Shown: piece after piece, positions 10,295-44,434 of the stretch
Layout: each line of letters begins with the position of its first letter
Position numbering within the stretch: the stretch's first letter is position 1
Notes under the pieces: generated by a model
The model's input: the letters and a program-made list of their open reading frames with translations, nothing else
What the model was told of the DNA's origin: nothing
Databases searched by the model: none
Source of the DNA: Acidimicrobiia bacterium
GTDB taxonomy: Bacteria; Actinomycetota; Acidimicrobiia; Acidimicrobiales; SHLQ01
Direction: 5' to 3'
Length of the DNA stretch: 64,000 bases
NCBI GenBank assembly: GCA_033344795.1
Contig: JAWPMS010000001.1
Location: 2,054,992 to 2,118,991 of the forward strand
Position numbers and translations under genes: made by a program

Positions 10295-10338
10295 TTCGAC
10301 CGCACGAACTAACTAGTTCGACCGCACGAACTAACTAG
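10295..10338. repeat. perfect 22-bp tandem duplication TTCGACCGCACGAACTAACTAG x2 abutting the RBS of the next gene
   Basis: Read directly: unit 1 is 10295-10316 and unit 2 is 10317-10338, with AGGAGG at 10337-10342 and ATG at 10351. The unit junction creates a 7-2-7 inverted repeat CGAACTA-AC-TAGTTCG (10305-10320). Confidence 0.9.
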
Positions 10339-10350
10339 GAGGTCTTCACT

Positions 10351-10596
10351 ATGTGGGGAATCATCGGCGCAGTCATCATGGGAACGATCATCGGCTTTGG
10401 TGGCCGAGCGATCCTTCCAGGCGGCCAGGACATCGGGTTGCCAAAGACCATCGGACTCGGAATCGTCTCTGCGTTCGTCGTATCGCTCGTGACCTCAGGT
10501 CTCGGCTTCTTCGGACAGGTCATTCTTGGTTCGATCGTTGCTGCAGGCCTGCTCTGGCTCGCGATCAAGCAAGGATGGCTCAGCGCCACGAGCTGA
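10351..10596 (+). CDS. GlsB/YeaQ/YmgE family (transglycosylase-associated) small stress membrane protein
   Basis: 81 aa. MWGIIGAVIMGTIIGFGGRAILPG... and glycine-rich TM helices are typical of the family. Strong RBS. Confidence 0.8.
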   Translation: MWGIIGAVIMGTIIGFGGRAILPGGQDIGLPKTIGLGIVSAFVVSLVTSGLGFFGQVILGSIVAAGLLWLAIKQGWLSATS

Positions 10597-41965: not shown

Positions 41966-43531
41966 ATGAAGCAGCTGTCTGCGCTCGACGCCACCTTCCT
42001 CTACATGGAAACGCCGTACTCGTACGGTCACGTCGCGAGTGCGTCGATCTACGAGCGGCCGTATCCGGGCTACGACGCCTACCAGACACTTCGTTCGACA
42101 GTTGAGGCGAGGCTGGGAGTTCTCGAGCCGCTCCGGCGCCGACTGGTCAAGGATCCGCTGGACCTCGACCTTCCGCATTGGGTGATCGACCCCGACTTCG
42201 ACCTCGACTTTCACATCCGACACATCGGTCTGCCGCCACCCGGAGACATGACCCAGCTGCAAGCTCAGGTCGCGCGTCTGGCCGGACGTCCGCTGGATCA
42301 GAGCCGGCCGCTATGGGAGGCATATGTCATCGATGGCTTGCCAGACGATCGGTTTGCCTTGTTCATGAAGATGCACCATGCAACCGTTGATGGAGCGGCG
42401 GGCGCCGAATTGTTGGGGATGATCACCGATACCGAGCCGGGCGCAGACCGTCCCGAGCTGAACGTTCCTCTGACGCCCGCCGGTCGTTTACCGACAACGG
42501 GAGACCTGCTTCGCACCGGGCTATTCGGTCTGGCGACACAACCGCTCAAACTCGTGAGGTTTCAGGCCAAACTCATCAAGGAGTTGGCGGACTCGAGTCG
42601 GAACAACGGGCTCAAACCGCTTGCCGATGTGCTCGGCAAGATGATTCCCGGCCAAGCTGGCAGCGTCGTACGCAACTGGGCCCACGACGAAGACGGCGTT
42701 GATGCGCCCGTGACCGCAGCGCCGAGCACGTTCTTCAACGCAAGCATCGGGCCCCATCGCCGATTCGAAGCTCGATCGGTCGAACTCGCGCGGGTCAAGG
42801 CGTTGAAGACCGCTACAGGCGCGACGGTGAATGACGTGGTGATGGCGATCTGTGCTGGCGCAATGCGGACCTGGCTCGAGGGGAGAGGCGAGCTCCCAGA
42901 AGTCCCGCTCGTGTCAATGATTCCCGTATCGATTCGAACAGGAGAAGAAACCGATCGGTGGACCAACCGAGTCTCTGCGATCTTCGCCGACATCCCCACC
43001 GATGAGGCTGACCCACTTGTTCGGTTGGCCAAGGTCAACCAGGCGATGGTCACGGGTAAGGAACAATTCGAGATGTTGCCCGCCGACATTCTGGTGGAGC
43101 TGAGCCAGGCAGCTCCGCATGCGCTGTCGATCAGGGCTTCGCGCGTCGCCAGTCGGATGCGCCTCGGCAACCGGGTGTCGTTGCCGTTCAACCTTGTGAT
43201 CTCAAATGTGCCGGGTCCGCGTGAGCCGTTGTACCTCGGCGAGGCAAAGCTCAACCACTACTACCCCGTATCAACGGTGGTCGAAGGTCAAGGCCTCAAC
43301 ATCACGGTGCAGAGCTATCTGAACACACTCGACTTCGGCCTGGTCAGTTGCAGTGACCTCGTGCCAGATCTCGACCGACTGGCAGATCTCATCGTCAGCG
43401 AGGTCCAGGTGCTCGAGGCCGCGGTGGCAAAGGCTGCTGCCTCCAAGAAGAAAGCGCCAGCCAAGAAGAAAGCGCCAGCCAAGAAGAAAGCGCCAGCCAA
43501 GAAGAAAGCGCCAGCCAAGAAGAAAGCGTGA
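41966..43531 (+). CDS. wax ester synthase/diacylglycerol acyltransferase (WS/DGAT) with C-terminal (KKKAPA)n tail
   Basis: MKQLSALDATFLYMET is followed by the catalytic HHATVDGAAG (HHxxxDG) and NVPGP near the C-terminus. The start was moved to ATG 41966. Confidence 0.88.
   Translation: MKQLSALDATFLYMETPYSYGHVASASIYERPYPGYDAYQTLRSTVEARLGVLEPLRRRLVKDPLDLDLPHWVIDPDFDLDFHIRHIGLPPPGDMTQLQAQVARLAGRPLDQSRPLWEAYVIDGLPDDRFALFMKMHHATVDGAAGAELLGMITDTEPGADRPELNVPLTPAGRLPTTGDLLRTGLFGLATQPLKLVRFQAKLIKELADSSRNNGLKPLADVLGKMIPGQAGSVVRNWAHDEDGVDAPVTAAPSTFFNASIGPHRRFEARSVELARVKALKTATGATVNDVVMAICAGAMRTWLEGRGELPEVPLVSMIPVSIRTGEETDRWTNRVSAIFADIPTDEADPLVRLAKVNQAMVTGKEQFEMLPADILVELSQAAPHALSIRASRVASRMRLGNRVSLPFNLVISNVPGPREPLYLGEAKLNHYYPVSTVVEGQGLNITVQSYLNTLDFGLVSCSDLVPDLDRLADLIVSEVQVLEAAVAKAAASKKKAPAKKKAPAKKKAPAKKKAPAKKKA
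43445..43528 (+). repeat. perfect 18-bp tandem repeat AAGAAGAAAGCGCCAGCC x4 plus a 12-nt partial unit, in frame, ending at the stop codon
   Basis: Read directly: units at 43445-43462, 43463-43480, 43481-43498 and 43499-43516, with the partial unit at 43517-43528 and TGA at 43529. All full units are identical at the nucleotide level. Confidence 0.95.
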
Positions 43532-43558: not shown

Positions 43559-44434
43559 ATGTCTACCCAGTCCACCATCGATATCGGCGGTCCCGTCAAC
43601 GTGGTGGCCCACGGTGGGTCTGGCGCTCCAATCCTGTTGATCCATGGCCTTGGGGGCTCACACGTCAACTGGCACGCGGTCGCCGGGCCATTGACCGAAT
43701 ACGGCACGGTCACCGCGATTGACCTGATCGGATTTGGTCGCACGCCACCGGCCGGACGCCTTGCCACGGTCCAGTCTCAGCGAGACCTCGTGATCCAGTA
43801 TCTGGAGACCCACGCAGACGGGCCGGCGACCCTGATCGGAAATTCGATGGGCGGCCTGGTTTCCCTTCTCGTCGCGCGGAAGGCTCCCGAACTCGTGGAT
43901 TCACTCGTCCTTGTCGACGCTGCTCTCCCGGCGGCCCGACTTCGTATCGACCCCACCGTCATCAAGGGTTTGATTCGGCCATTGGTGCCCGTGCTTGGCG
44001 CACGCGCGTACGAAAAGGCCATGGAGGATCCAGAGGCGTACATGGACGAGATGGGCAAGATCTTGTTCGTCGATCCTTCCCGCATGCCAGCCGATGCAAG
44101 GCGCGTGAGCGTCGAGATGGCGACGGAGCGAGCCACGATGCCGTGGGTTTCACAAGCCTTCTCCGAGGCCGCGAAGTCATTGTTCGCCGTGCTCTTGAAG
44201 CGCAAGTCATTCGCCGCCGACGTTCGAGAGATCCAAGTTCCGGCGCTCATCGTCCAAGGCGCACAGGACCGACTCGTCGACGTGGAGTCAGCCCGTTGGC
44301 TCGCCGCAGAGCGACCCGACTGGAAACTCAAGGTATTCGACAACGTCGGGCACGTGCCAATGCTCGAAGTGCCTGAGCAGTTTCTCGATGTGGTTGGGTC
44401 CTGGCTGTCCGAACGCGCTGCGGTTCGTTCTTGA
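43559..44434 (+). CDS. alpha/beta hydrolase (esterase/lipase-like)
   Basis: 291 aa. The oxyanion region is HGLGGS, the nucleophile elbow is GNSMGG, and the C-terminus has D...GH. Confidence 0.8.
   Translation: MSTQSTIDIGGPVNVVAHGGSGAPILLIHGLGGSHVNWHAVAGPLTEYGTVTAIDLIGFGRTPPAGRLATVQSQRDLVIQYLETHADGPATLIGNSMGGLVSLLVARKAPELVDSLVLVDAALPAARLRIDPTVIKGLIRPLVPVLGARAYEKAMEDPEAYMDEMGKILFVDPSRMPADARRVSVEMATERATMPWVSQAFSEAAKSLFAVLLKRKSFAADVREIQVPALIVQGAQDRLVDVESARWLAAERPDWKLKVFDNVGHVPMLEVPEQFLDVVGSWLSERAAVRS

What the first reader, a model, noticed from the sequence alone, without database searches (positions are those of the whole stretch)
43445..43528. Perfect 18-bp x4.7 tandem repeat giving a WS/DGAT acyltransferase a (KKKAPA)n tail
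The wax-ester synthase/DGAT gene ends ...AVAKAAAS-KKKAPA-KKKAPA-KKKAPA-KKKAPA-KKKA-stop. The four full units are identical at every nucleotide, including synonymous positions. This argues for recent slippage-type expansion, a potential VNTR, rather than an ancient conserved domain. Lys/Ala/Pro repeats of this type are best known from actinobacterial histone-like proteins, where they bind DNA or other polyanions. On a neutral-lipid-synthesising enzyme such a tail is unusual. It could tether the enzyme to nucleic acid, polyphosphate, anionic membrane or the lipid-droplet surface (speculation).
Basis: partly seen in the sequence, partly recalled or inferred. Interest (0 to 1): 0.6.

Follow-up and report, generated by a model that had tools for sequence, protein, structure and literature searches.

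The report
Repeat-built lysine tail on wax-ester synthase
A storage-lipid-making enzyme (WS/DGAT) of an Acidimicrobiia-type bacterium ends in a disordered, strongly positive lysine/alanine/proline tail encoded by a perfect 18-bp tandem repeat; the repeat is young, but such tails are common and fast-changing across this enzyme family, which nobody seems to have described, and they probably stick the enzyme to DNA or to negatively charged membrane or lipid-droplet surfaces.

Summary
Window 43443-43528 holds an 18-bp unit x4.8 at 100% identity. It encodes S-(KKKAPA)4-KKKA-stop at the end of a genuine WS/DGAT gene (41966-43531, HHATVDG motif, both Pfam domains, TIGR02946 above cutoff).

The array is recent and slippage-type. 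It is perfect even at the minor codons AAA and CCA, whereas the 88%-identical ortholog carries a diverged 18/36-nt array.

The tail is not unusual for this family:
- 90 of 198 close homologs carry a C-terminal tail of at least 15 aa with net charge of +5 or more.
- So do 48 of 145 cluster representatives found with a core-only query.
- These tails are built from different in-frame repeat units (PAAKK, KKSAP, KKAPV and others).
- They vary by whole units between near-identical alleles.
- No K-rich segment was found in 669 kb of flanking DNA.

The tail turns an acidic enzyme (core -13) into a protein with a +16 disordered end.

Function is inferred, not shown. I think it is a non-specific polyanion tether, to nucleoid DNA and/or to anionic phospholipid of membrane or lipid droplets. 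The analogies are MLDS, HBHA/TadA and PhaM/PhaF.

I rate it a new variant of known kinds, of moderate interest.

The parts
41966..43531 (+). WS/DGAT (wax ester synthase / diacylglycerol acyltransferase) gene, 521 aa plus TGA stop
   Evidence: ORF list. Pfam PF03007 and PF06974, and TIGR02946 at 448 bits against a cutoff of 310. N-terminus MKQLS... aligns with homolog starts. It is the only WS/DGAT in the window.
41975..42841 (+). Catalytic domain (residues 4-292), containing the HHxxxDG active-site motif HHATVDG at 42374-42394
   Evidence: Pfam WS_DGAT_cat E=3e-67. Motif located. H137, H138, D142 and G143 are invariant in alignment A2.
42959..43408 (+). WS/DGAT C-terminal domain (residues 332-481)
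   Evidence: Pfam WS_DGAT_C E=3e-35. Aligns to solved structures 7NXG and 6CHJ up to query residues 491 and 482.
43370..43450 (+). Last helix of the fold (residues 469-495), moderately amphipathic with an acidic polar face; the tail is appended directly to it
   Evidence: AlphaFold2 model: helix 469-495, with pLDDT about 95 for residues 471-490. Hydrophobic moment 0.45-0.48, the 97.6th percentile within the protein, net charge -3 to -4. The equivalent C-terminal helix of Mtb Tgs1 is proposed as a lipid-inclusion binding motif (PMC10699116).
43424..43528 (+). Polycationic tail (residues 487-521): VAKAAAS(KKKAPA)4KKKA; 16 Lys, no acidic residue, net +16; predicted disordered
   Evidence: Translation. 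Residues 499-521 have pLDDT below 50 and no secondary structure. Core net charge is -13. It is the only K-rich segment in the 64 kb window.
43443..43528 (+). Perfect 18-bp x4.8 in-frame tandem repeat (unit CCAAGAAGAAAGCGCCAG; in codon register AAG AAG AAA GCG CCA GCC)
   Evidence: TRF 100% identity, score 172. Lag-18 identity run of 68 nt.
43559..44434 (+). Alpha/beta-hydrolase gene (291 aa), 27 nt downstream on the same strand; probably co-transcribed
   Evidence: Pfam Abhydrolase_1, Abhydrolase_6 and Hydrolase_4. No terminator-like or promoter-like site lies between the genes. The gene pair is conserved in close orthologs L001, L002, L098/L099 and L102/L103, but not in the wider family.

Best explanation
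The gene encodes an ordinary two-domain WS/DGAT acyltransferase. An in-frame minisatellite has built a 35-residue, intrinsically disordered, histone-H1/PAKKA-like polycationic tail (net +16) onto its last helix.

Shown here:
- The array in this lineage was homogenised or expanded recently by replication slippage or unequal exchange of an 18-bp (6-codon) unit.
- A homologous 18-nt-periodic tail already existed in the common ancestor with the closest relative.
- Basic tails of this kind are a recurrent feature specific to WS/DGAT genes. They are gained, lost and resized often, always in the lysine reading frame and always with net positive charge.

Inferred:
- The tail is kept by selection for charge, not for sequence.
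- It works as a non-specific electrostatic tether to cellular polyanions. These would be nucleoid DNA (as for the PAKKA tails of MLDS, PhaM and PhaF) and/or anionic phospholipids of the cytoplasmic membrane and lipid-droplet monolayer (as for HBHA/TadA).
- It thereby places an otherwise acidic, peripheral enzyme, and the lipid bodies it seeds, at those surfaces.
- Repeat-number changes tune tail length and charge.
For: Structure and recency:
- Perfect array.
- Minor codons are amplified with the unit.
- Ortholog L001 (88% aa identity, same synteny) has a diverged 18/36-nt array encoding AAPAKKKAAPRKKAPAKKK....

Recurrence:
- 90 of 198 unique close homologs have tails of at least 15 aa with net charge of +5 or more. 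Median length is 57 aa and median charge +13.5, reaching 140 aa and +30.
- 48 of 145 representatives from a core-only search have such tails.
- Carriers include Ilumatobacteraceae, Iamiaceae, other Acidimicrobiales MAGs and a MAG labelled Halioglobus; two Mycobacterium genomes carry shorter, less lysine-dense basic tails.

Specificity:
- 31 of 84 WS/DGATs have a K-rich window, against 0 of 2572 flanking ORFs.
- 23 AAGAAG-dense DNA segments lie inside WS/DGAT genes and 0 outside them in 669 kb.

Selection on composition:
- K:R is 2.2:1 in tails against 1:4 in cores.
- Tails are A 25%, K 18.5%, P 11%, with D+E under 4%.
- All TRF periods in the lysine-coding tail arrays are multiples of 3. Forty-two of 86 gene 3' ends (last 420 nt) have a tandem repeat, at 62-100% identity.

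Lability:
- At least 33 state changes on an NJ tree of 198 tips.
- Unit-sized indels separate near-identical alleles.

Disorder: pLDDT is below 50 for residues 499-521.

Charge: whole-protein mean is +3.5 with a tail and -11.9 without.

Published analogies:
- The MLDS PAKKA C-terminus binds DNA non-specifically, K-to-E substitution abolishes this, and it tethers lipid droplets to DNA (PMC5504291).
- The HBHA K/A/P C-terminus is needed for PI/PIP2 binding and for lipid-inclusion formation (PMC6176652).
- PhaM PAKKA motifs attach PHB granules to the nucleoid, and PhaF segregates PHA granules (PMC9049629).
- Tgs enzymes sit at the membrane and on lipid inclusions (PMC10699116).
Against: - No binding, localisation or phenotype data exist for any tailed WS/DGAT.
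- About half of the homologs, including syntenic orthologs at about 70% identity (P0002, P0006, P0009) and the two crystallised enzymes (7NXG, 6CHJ), work without a tail. The tail is therefore dispensable for catalysis.
- Tail-less enzymes have equally acidic cores: -12.1 against -10.7, p=0.046, in the wrong direction for charge compensation.
- The strict PAKKA motif is absent in the window (it has PAKKKA) and is present in only 16 of 90 tails.
- Sequence cannot tell DNA from phospholipid, RNA or polyphosphate as the in-vivo partner.
- The exact copy number rests on one assembly.
Confidence: 0.6

Rival explanations
1. The tail is neutral, slippage-prone low-complexity sequence. It is tolerated junk at a permissive C-terminus with no function of its own. 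It appears and disappears by mutation pressure only.
For: - The tail is absent in about half of the homologs and is lost within clusters at 92% core identity (P0291, P0293).
- At least 33 gains or losses are needed on the tree.
- The crystallised, active enzymes lack it.
- Non-basic repeat tails also exist: P0086 (TVAGDPTVAAT)n and L059 PEPEPK....
Against: - There is strong gene specificity: 31 of 84 WS/DGATs against 0 of 2572 neighbouring ORFs, and 23 against 0 AAGAAG-dense DNA segments.
- Independent repeat units (PAAKK, KKSAP, KKSSA, KKAQA, KKAPV, KKKAPA) all converge on a K/A/P(T/S) composition with almost no acidic residues.
- They are always read in the Lys frame (AAG), never in the Glu or Arg frames of the same DNA.
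- Lys is enriched about 9-fold over the core, in genomes that otherwise prefer Arg.
Confidence: 0.2
2. The tail specifically tethers the synthase, and the lipid bodies it nucleates, to the nucleoid. This would be a one-polypeptide version of PhaM-PhaC or of MLDS on lipid droplets. It would serve droplet partitioning at division and/or DNA protection. This is a sharper sub-case of the best explanation.
For: - PAKKA-type tails of MLDS and PhaM bind DNA non-specifically and attach storage granules to the nucleoid (PMC5504291; PMC9049629).
- The window tail has four PAKKKA motifs and a net charge of +16.
- Many homolog tails carry strict PAKKA (16 of 90).
Against: - There is no direct evidence.
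- WS/DGAT substrates and products are membrane and lipid-droplet lipids, and Tgs enzymes fractionate with membranes (PMC10699116).
- The like tail of HBHA binds phosphoinositides rather than serving DNA tethering (PMC6176652).
Confidence: 0.3
3. The repeat, or its copy number, is an assembly artefact.
For: Short perfect repeats can be mis-resolved by de Bruijn assemblers. No identical protein or flank exists in the public collections searched, so there is no independent copy.
Against: - The array is only 86 bp long. That is shorter than typical reads; this point rests on general knowledge and was not tested here.
- An independently assembled ortholog has a homologous 18-nt-periodic tail of similar length at the same position.
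- Dozens of other assemblies show such tails, some with 100%-identical units: L084 15 nt x5.3 and L057 30 nt x2.2.
Confidence: 0.04
4. The repeat acts at the DNA or RNA level, as a phase-variation switch or as a regulatory or translational-coupling element for the downstream hydrolase, rather than through the peptide.
For: The array ends 30 nt before the start codon of the downstream hydrolase. It is purine-rich (AAGAAGAAAG).
Against: - The unit is 18 nt, that is 6 codons, so copy changes never shift the frame. All TRF periods in the lysine-coding tail arrays of homologs are multiples of 3.
- There is no promoter-like or terminator-like site.
- Tail-less orthologs keep the same hydrolase neighbour 9-40 nt downstream without any repeat.
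- Tails occur in the wider family, where no hydrolase follows.
Confidence: 0.03

Closest known systems
Characterised bacterial WS/DGATs (Acinetobacter-type 'O-acyltransferase WSD' PDB 7NXG; Marinobacter-type DGAT PDB 6CHJ; M. tuberculosis Tgs1)
   Same: Same two-domain fold family (PF03007 and PF06974), the HHxxxDG motif, and alignment to the end of the last helix.
   Different: The solved enzymes end 5-7 residues after the aligned core (463 and 455 aa) and have no basic tail. Tgs1 is 463 aa, and its proposed binding motif is the C-terminal amphipathic helix only (PMC10699116).
MLDS / TadA / HBHA (actinobacterial lipid-droplet-associated proteins with C-terminal Lys/Ala/Pro repeats)
   Same: A C-terminal, disordered, K/A/P-repeat polycationic tail on a protein of the neutral-lipid storage machinery. 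Repeat number varies among homologs. Binding to DNA (MLDS), to heparin and to PI/PIP2 (HBHA) depends on the tail (PMC5504291, PMC6176652).
   Different: Those are small structural proteins, with an N-terminal droplet-targeting or coiled-coil domain, not enzymes. They come from Corynebacteriales. Their motif is PAKKA or KKAAPA, whereas here it is PAKKKA. There is no homology outside the low-complexity tail: Pfam finds only the WS/DGAT domains.
PhaM and PhaF (PHA/PHB granule proteins with PAKKA or AAKP histone-H1-like C-termini)
   Same: The same logic. A lysine-rich tail links a carbon-storage granule, and in PhaM the polymer synthase, to the nucleoid (PMC9049629).
   Different: They are separate adaptor proteins in Proteobacteria acting on polyester granules. 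Here the tail is fused to the synthase itself and the product is wax ester or triacylglycerol.
Histone-like HupB/Hlp (MDP1) C-terminal domain and the eukaryotic histone H1 C-terminal domain
   Same: PAKKA or S/TPKK-type low-complexity K/A/P repeats and non-specific polyanion binding (cited in PMC5504291; otherwise from general knowledge).
   Different: Those tails extend dedicated DNA-binding folds. Here the tail extends a lipid acyltransferase.
In-frame coding minisatellites (VNTRs)
   Same: Perfect head-to-tail units whose length is a multiple of 3. Unit-sized length polymorphism between near-identical alleles is shown in homolog clusters.
   Different: Polymorphism at this very locus could not be tested, because no near-identical strain was found.

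Membership tests
WS/DGAT (wax ester synthase/acyl-CoA:diacylglycerol acyltransferase; TIGR02946, PF03007+PF06974) | N-terminal catalytic domain scoring above the curated thresholds | tested here: met
   PF03007 at 227.6 bits against a cutoff of 23.6. TIGR02946 at 448 bits against a cutoff of 309.95.
WS/DGAT (wax ester synthase/acyl-CoA:diacylglycerol acyltransferase; TIGR02946, PF03007+PF06974) | HHxxxDG active-site motif | tested here: met
   HHATVDG at residues 137-143. H137, H138, D142 and G143 are invariant in A2.
WS/DGAT (wax ester synthase/acyl-CoA:diacylglycerol acyltransferase; TIGR02946, PF03007+PF06974) | WS/DGAT C-terminal domain | tested here: met
   PF06974 at 122 bits, residues 332-481.
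WS/DGAT (wax ester synthase/acyl-CoA:diacylglycerol acyltransferase; TIGR02946, PF03007+PF06974) | Acyl-CoA-dependent wax ester or TAG synthesis activity | not testable with these tools
   Needs an enzyme assay.
PAKKA / histone-H1-like lysine-rich polyanion-binding tails (MLDS, PhaM, PhaF, HupB C-terminus) | C-terminal tandem Lys/Ala/Pro repeats with high net positive charge | tested here: met
   (KKKAPA)4KKKA: 16 K in 35 residues, net +16.
PAKKA / histone-H1-like lysine-rich polyanion-binding tails (MLDS, PhaM, PhaF, HupB C-terminus) | Strict PAKKA pentapeptide motif | tested here: not met
   The window has PAKKKA x4, one Lys longer. Strict PAKKA occurs in 16 of 90 homolog tails.
PAKKA / histone-H1-like lysine-rich polyanion-binding tails (MLDS, PhaM, PhaF, HupB C-terminus) | Intrinsic disorder of the free tail | tested here: met
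   In the AlphaFold2 model, residues 499-521 have pLDDT below 50 and no secondary structure. This is a prediction only.
PAKKA / histone-H1-like lysine-rich polyanion-binding tails (MLDS, PhaM, PhaF, HupB C-terminus) | Sequence-independent DNA or polyanion binding that depends on the lysines | not testable with these tools
   Needs EMSA, heparin and liposome assays with a K-to-E control, as in PMC5504291.
HBHA/TadA/MLDS protein family (as homologous proteins) | N-terminal coiled-coil or droplet-targeting domain homologous to HBHA | tested here: not met
   The Pfam scan finds only the WS/DGAT domains. The rest of the protein aligns end to end with WS/DGATs. It is not a member; only the tail is analogous.
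Coding VNTR / minisatellite | Head-to-tail near-identical units | tested here: met
   18 bp x4.8 at 100% identity.
Coding VNTR / minisatellite | Copy-number polymorphism among strains at this locus | tested here: inconclusive
   No near-identical strain was found. Ortholog L001 differs in copy number and unit sequence. Homolog clusters show unit-sized polymorphism.

The most novel reading that the evidence does not exclude
Many bacterial WS/DGATs, this one included, carry their own histone-H1-like tail that physically couples neutral-lipid synthesis and nascent lipid droplets to the nucleoid (or to anionic membrane domains). In a single polypeptide this would do what MLDS does for Rhodococcus droplets and what PhaM does for the PHB synthase. 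Tail length would be tuned rapidly by in-frame repeat slippage, giving population-level variation in droplet positioning or partitioning.
Probability: 0.3. Interest if true: 0.6.

Novelty: new variant of a known kind. Interest (0 to 1): 0.45.

Why it matters
How peripheral, transmembrane-less WS/DGATs find the membrane and seed lipid bodies is only partly understood. How bacterial lipid droplets are positioned relative to the nucleoid is likewise unclear. The known droplet-DNA and droplet-phospholipid links run through separate small proteins (MLDS, TadA, HBHA) that are confined to Corynebacteriales.

If the tail is functional, a third to a half of the WS/DGATs sampled here have solved the same problem by fusing a polycationic tether to the synthase itself. 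These come mostly from Acidimicrobiia, with some from other Actinomycetota and a few MAGs labelled Proteobacteria. The feature is absent from every enzyme studied so far.

There are two practical points:
- Such tails are a simple handle for targeting or immobilising engineered wax-ester or TAG synthases.
- They are a caution for heterologous expression, because they can cause DNA binding and aggregation.

The family also gives a clean natural example of selection on charge rather than sequence, with continual repeat turnover.

Tried and rejected
1. Exact-protein look-up of the window enzyme in public assemblies: not on record.
2. Exact 42-nt flank-plus-unit search of metagenome contigs: 0 hits.
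3. Protein-guided metagenome scan: best relatives only about 50% identical. Copy-number polymorphism at this locus therefore could not be tested.
5. Charge-compensation idea (tails arise on more acidic cores): rejected. Tail-bearing cores are -10.7 and tail-less cores -12.1, a weak difference in the opposite direction.
6. Recent tail loss by nonsense or frameshift in tail-less orthologs: no K-rich remnant in any frame after their stop codons.
7. Generic AAG microsatellite or genome-wide habit of K-rich tails: rejected for the neighbourhoods sampled, with 0 of 2572 ORFs and 0 DNA segments outside WS/DGAT genes.
8. Regulatory or terminator role of the repeat: no promoter-like or terminator-like site between the two genes.
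9. WS/DGAT-hydrolase operon as a family-wide trait: true only for the close ortholog group, 2 of 76 wider loci.
10. A regex anchor for the core end failed on distant representatives. It was replaced by phmmer coordinates.
11. Literature searches for a lysine-rich or extended C-terminus on WS/DGAT returned nothing relevant. The 'PAKKA' hits are eukaryotic lipid-droplet papers in which the term occurs once or twice; none concerns a bacterial WS/DGAT tail.
12. tRNA and Rfam scans of the window: nothing found.
Full report
**1. Observation**

The sequence at 43443-43528 is a perfect tandem array. Tandem Repeats Finder gives period 18, 4.8 copies, 100% matches, no indels and score 172, with unit CCAAGAAGAAAGCGCCAG. 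It is by far the strongest tandem repeat in the 64 kb window; the next scores 88.

A direct scan finds a 68-nt run of identity at lag 18 covering exactly 43443-43528. The longest comparable run elsewhere in the window, at any lag from 3 to 60, is 22 nt. The chance expectation is about 10^-32.

The protein ends AVAKAAAS-(KKKAPA)4-KKKA, followed by TGA at 43529-43531.

**2. The gene**

The ORF listed from GTG 41867 most likely starts at ATG 41966 (MKQLSALDATFLYMET...). This is where all homologs start.

The 521-aa product is a WS/DGAT:
- Pfam WS_DGAT_cat covers residues 4-292 (E=3e-67).
- Pfam WS_DGAT_C covers residues 332-481 (E=3e-35).
- NCBIfam TIGR02946 scores 448 bits against a cutoff of 310.
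- The catalytic HHxxxDG motif is present as HHATVDG at residues 137-143.

It is the only WS/DGAT in the window. Its tail is the only lysine-rich segment in any ORF of the window.

The nearest solved structures are 7NXG (463 aa) and 6CHJ (455 aa). They align through the last helix and then end, so they have no tail.

An AlphaFold2 model built on a 25-sequence alignment (pTM 0.71) ends the fold with helix 469-495. Residues 499-521 have pLDDT below 50 and no secondary structure.

The tail proper is residues 487-521. It has 16 Lys, no acidic residue and a net charge of +16. The core has a net charge of -13.

**3. Surroundings**

An alpha/beta-hydrolase gene (43559-44434, 291 aa) follows 27 nt downstream on the same strand. 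No promoter-like or terminator-like site lies between the two genes.

This gene pair is conserved in the close ortholog group: L001, L002, L098/L099 and L102/L103. It is not conserved in the wider family, where 2 of 76 loci have it.

Upstream, on the other strand, lies a CxxCxxCC-domain gene. Window GC content is 61.8%. All best homologs come from Acidimicrobiia or Acidimicrobiales metagenome-assembled genomes.

**4. Is the tail unusual? No.**

*Close homologs.* I aligned the 120 best database homologs and cut at the end of the core. Fifty-one of them carry a C-terminal extension of at least 15 aa with net charge of +5 or more. Fifty-one have little or no extension, and 18 have other extensions.

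After adding full-length genes recovered from GTDB genomes and metagenome contigs, 90 of 198 unique proteins have basic tails. Median tail length is 57 aa and median charge +13.5, with extremes of 140 aa and +30.

*Tail-blind sample.* To avoid any bias from the tail itself, I searched 1.84 billion cluster representatives with the core only (residues 1-486). Of the best 150, at 34-53% identity, 145 have a complete C-terminal core. Of these, 48 (33%) have basic tails.

*Carriers.* They include Ilumatobacteraceae, Iamiaceae and other Acidimicrobiales MAGs. They also include a MAG labelled Halioglobus (L043). Two Mycobacterium genomes (L017, L022) carry shorter, less lysine-dense basic tails.

**5. 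The tail is specific to this gene family and compositionally selected.**

*Specificity.* I examined 669 kb of DNA flanking 84 homologous genes. None of 2572 stop-to-stop ORFs of at least 100 aa has a window with 7 or more Lys in 20 residues. Among the WS/DGATs themselves, 31 of 84 do. At the DNA level, 23 AAGAAG-dense segments lie inside WS/DGAT genes and none outside them.

*Composition.* Pooled tails are A 25%, K 18.5%, P 11%, T 9%, R 8.5% and S 7.6%, with D+E under 4%. Lys is only 2.1% of the cores. The K:R ratio switches from 1:4 in cores to 2.2:1 in tails.

*Charge.* Tails change the mean whole-protein charge from -11.9 to +3.5.

*Repeat units.* They differ between lineages: PAAKK x6 in L049, KKSAP x5 in L084, KKSSA x4 in L040, KKAQA in L035, KKAPV in the P0058 cluster and KKKAPA here and in L015. 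All converge on the same composition and always use the Lys frame. This pattern argues for selection on charge and disorder, not on sequence.

**6. The array is young and the tails are dynamic.**

*The closest relative.* P0001 (locus L001) is 88% identical in protein sequence and has the same WS/DGAT, hydrolase, DLH gene order. Its tail is a homologous 47-aa sequence, AAPAKKKAAPRKKAPAKKKAAPRKKAAARKKAAPRKKAPAKKS. Its DNA has 18-nt periodicity at only 78% identity over 6.6 copies, with a 36-nt higher-order period at 88%. An 18-nt-periodic tail therefore predates the split, and the window's lineage has since homogenised or expanded a single unit.

*Codons.* The unit carries the minor codons AAA (20% of Lys codons in window genes) and CCA (15% of Pro codons). 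They are copied 5 and 4 times in the array. That is what unit amplification predicts, and not what codon selection predicts.

*The family as a whole.* Forty-two of 86 gene 3' ends (last 420 nt) contain tandem repeats. The lysine-coding arrays have periods of 15, 18, 30, 36, 45 or 78 nt, all multiples of 3. Identities range from 62% to 100%, and two others are perfect (L084 15 nt x5.3; L057 30 nt x2.2).

*Length polymorphism by whole units is directly visible:*
- P0068 and P0070 are identical over 567 residues except for one 5-aa unit.
- The P0058 cluster has members of 509, 514, 519 and 524 aa. They differ by KKAPV-type units while their cores are 94-96% identical.
- In the P0083 cluster, two members at 92% core identity have no basic tail at all.

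*Gains and losses.* On a neighbour-joining tree of 198 cores, tail presence or absence needs at least 33 changes. Shuffled labels need 65 on average. There is phylogenetic signal, but also many gains and losses.

Syntenic tail-less orthologs (P0002, P0006, P0009) show no tail remnant after their stop codons.

*Limits.* Polymorphism at this exact locus could not be tested, because no near-identical strain exists in the searched collections. The read-level check for artefact could not be done either. An artefact is unlikely, given the independent homologous arrays.

**7. How it most likely works (inferred)**

A proline-punctuated K/A/P polycation cannot form a membrane-inserting helix. It is the same kind of sequence as several tails with published functions:
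- The PAKKA C-terminus of Rhodococcus MLDS binds DNA without sequence specificity. K-to-E substitution abolishes binding. It attaches lipid droplets to genomic DNA (PMC5504291).
- The K/A/P C-terminus of HBHA is required for PI/PIP2 binding and for lipid-inclusion formation. Its Rhodococcus homolog TadA is associated with lipid inclusions, regulates their assembly and aggregates them in vitro (PMC6176652).
- The PAKKA motifs of PhaM attach PHB granules to the nucleoid, and the histone-like C-terminus of PhaF partitions PHA granules (PMC9049629).

WS/DGAT-type Tgs enzymes are peripheral proteins. They are found at membrane microdomains and on lipid inclusions. The C-terminal amphipathic helix of Tgs1 has been proposed as the binding motif (PMC10699116).

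In the window protein the tail is appended directly to the equivalent last helix. That helix is moderately amphipathic (hydrophobic moment 0.45-0.48, the 97.6th percentile within the protein) but has an acidic face.

I therefore propose that the tail is a non-specific electrostatic tether. It would bring an acidic enzyme to anionic surfaces: the nucleoid and/or the anionic phospholipids of membrane and droplet. Repeat-number change would tune its reach and charge.

The evidence does not tell the partners apart. I give the nucleoid-tether sub-case about 0.3.

Several points count against an essential role:
- Half the family lacks the tail.
- Tail-less cores are just as acidic.
- The strict PAKKA motif is absent here.

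**8. Rivals**

- *Neutral low-complexity growth* (about 0.2). This fits the lability. It does not fit the gene specificity, the frame constancy or the charge bias.
- *Assembly artefact* (about 0.04). See section 6.
- *A DNA-level regulatory or phase-variation role* (about 0.03). This is contradicted by units that are multiples of 3, by the lack of signals, and by tail-less orthologs that keep the same neighbour.
- *A role as a modification or degradation platform* (lysine methylation as in HBHA, or pupylation). This cannot be addressed with these tools.

**9. Comparison with what is known, and novelty**

The enzyme is a member of the WS/DGAT family; all testable defining features are met.

The tail works like, but is not a homolog of, the PAKKA or histone-H1-like tails of MLDS, HBHA, TadA, PhaM, PhaF and HupB.

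Full-text searches found no description of a lysine-rich or extended C-terminus on WS/DGATs.

I rate it a new variant of known kinds: a known enzyme family carrying a known type of tail in an apparently undescribed but widespread combination. Interest is moderate (0.45). The perfect repeat in this window is one ordinary instance of a family-wide phenomenon. The phenomenon itself is a testable lead on how bacterial neutral-lipid synthesis is localised.

Noticed in passing
window 10295-10338 (and the gene starting at 10352): A perfect 22-bp x2 tandem direct repeat, TTCGACCGCACGAACTAACTAG. It lies immediately upstream of a GGAGG ribosome-binding site and the ATG of a small (about 80 aa) hydrophobic protein (MWGIIGAVIMGTIIGFGG...). 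It is the second-strongest tandem repeat of the window and could be a duplicated operator or leader element.
   Followed up: no
window 43559-44434; L001 1716-2591; L102 4017-4910; L098 from 3992: The WS/DGAT gene is followed at 9-40 nt by a conserved alpha/beta-hydrolase gene (a possible lipase or esterase partner) in the close ortholog group only. The pairing is absent in 74 of 76 wider homolog loci.
   Followed up: partly
Loci L036, L043, L045, L048, L049, L055, L084 and others (C-terminal region of their WS/DGAT genes): A sister WS/DGAT subfamily at 45-50% identity has a conserved linker motif, EWAxPQxPxPMRxGGDGVEPI, between the core and the lysine-rich tail. The window protein lacks it. 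Its function is unknown.
   Followed up: no
P0086; L059 (Mycobacterium sp. MAG); L055/L056: Some homologs carry non-basic or unusual repeat tails: (TVAGDPTVAAT)n in P0086, PEPEPKPEPEPEPEPE in L059 and (KGSGS)n in L055/L056. The C-terminus of this family is therefore a general hotspot for repeat growth.
   Followed up: no
P0122 (804 aa); P0245, P0259, P0265 (about 930-954 aa); P0162, P0163, P0167: Some WS/DGAT cluster representatives are fused to other modules. One has a C-terminal alpha/beta-hydrolase-like region. Others are apparent tandem WS/DGAT duplications or carry N-terminal extensions of 230-290 aa.
   Followed up: no
P0272: A named Acidimicrobiia species with a complete-genome-sized contig, Salinilacustrithrix flava (WP_432427205.1), carries a WS/DGAT with a 54-aa lysine-rich tail. 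It is a candidate experimental organism for testing the tail; whether it is cultured was not checked.
   Followed up: no
window 1-64000: No tRNA genes and no Rfam family at gathering threshold were found anywhere in the 64 kb window.
   Followed up: yes
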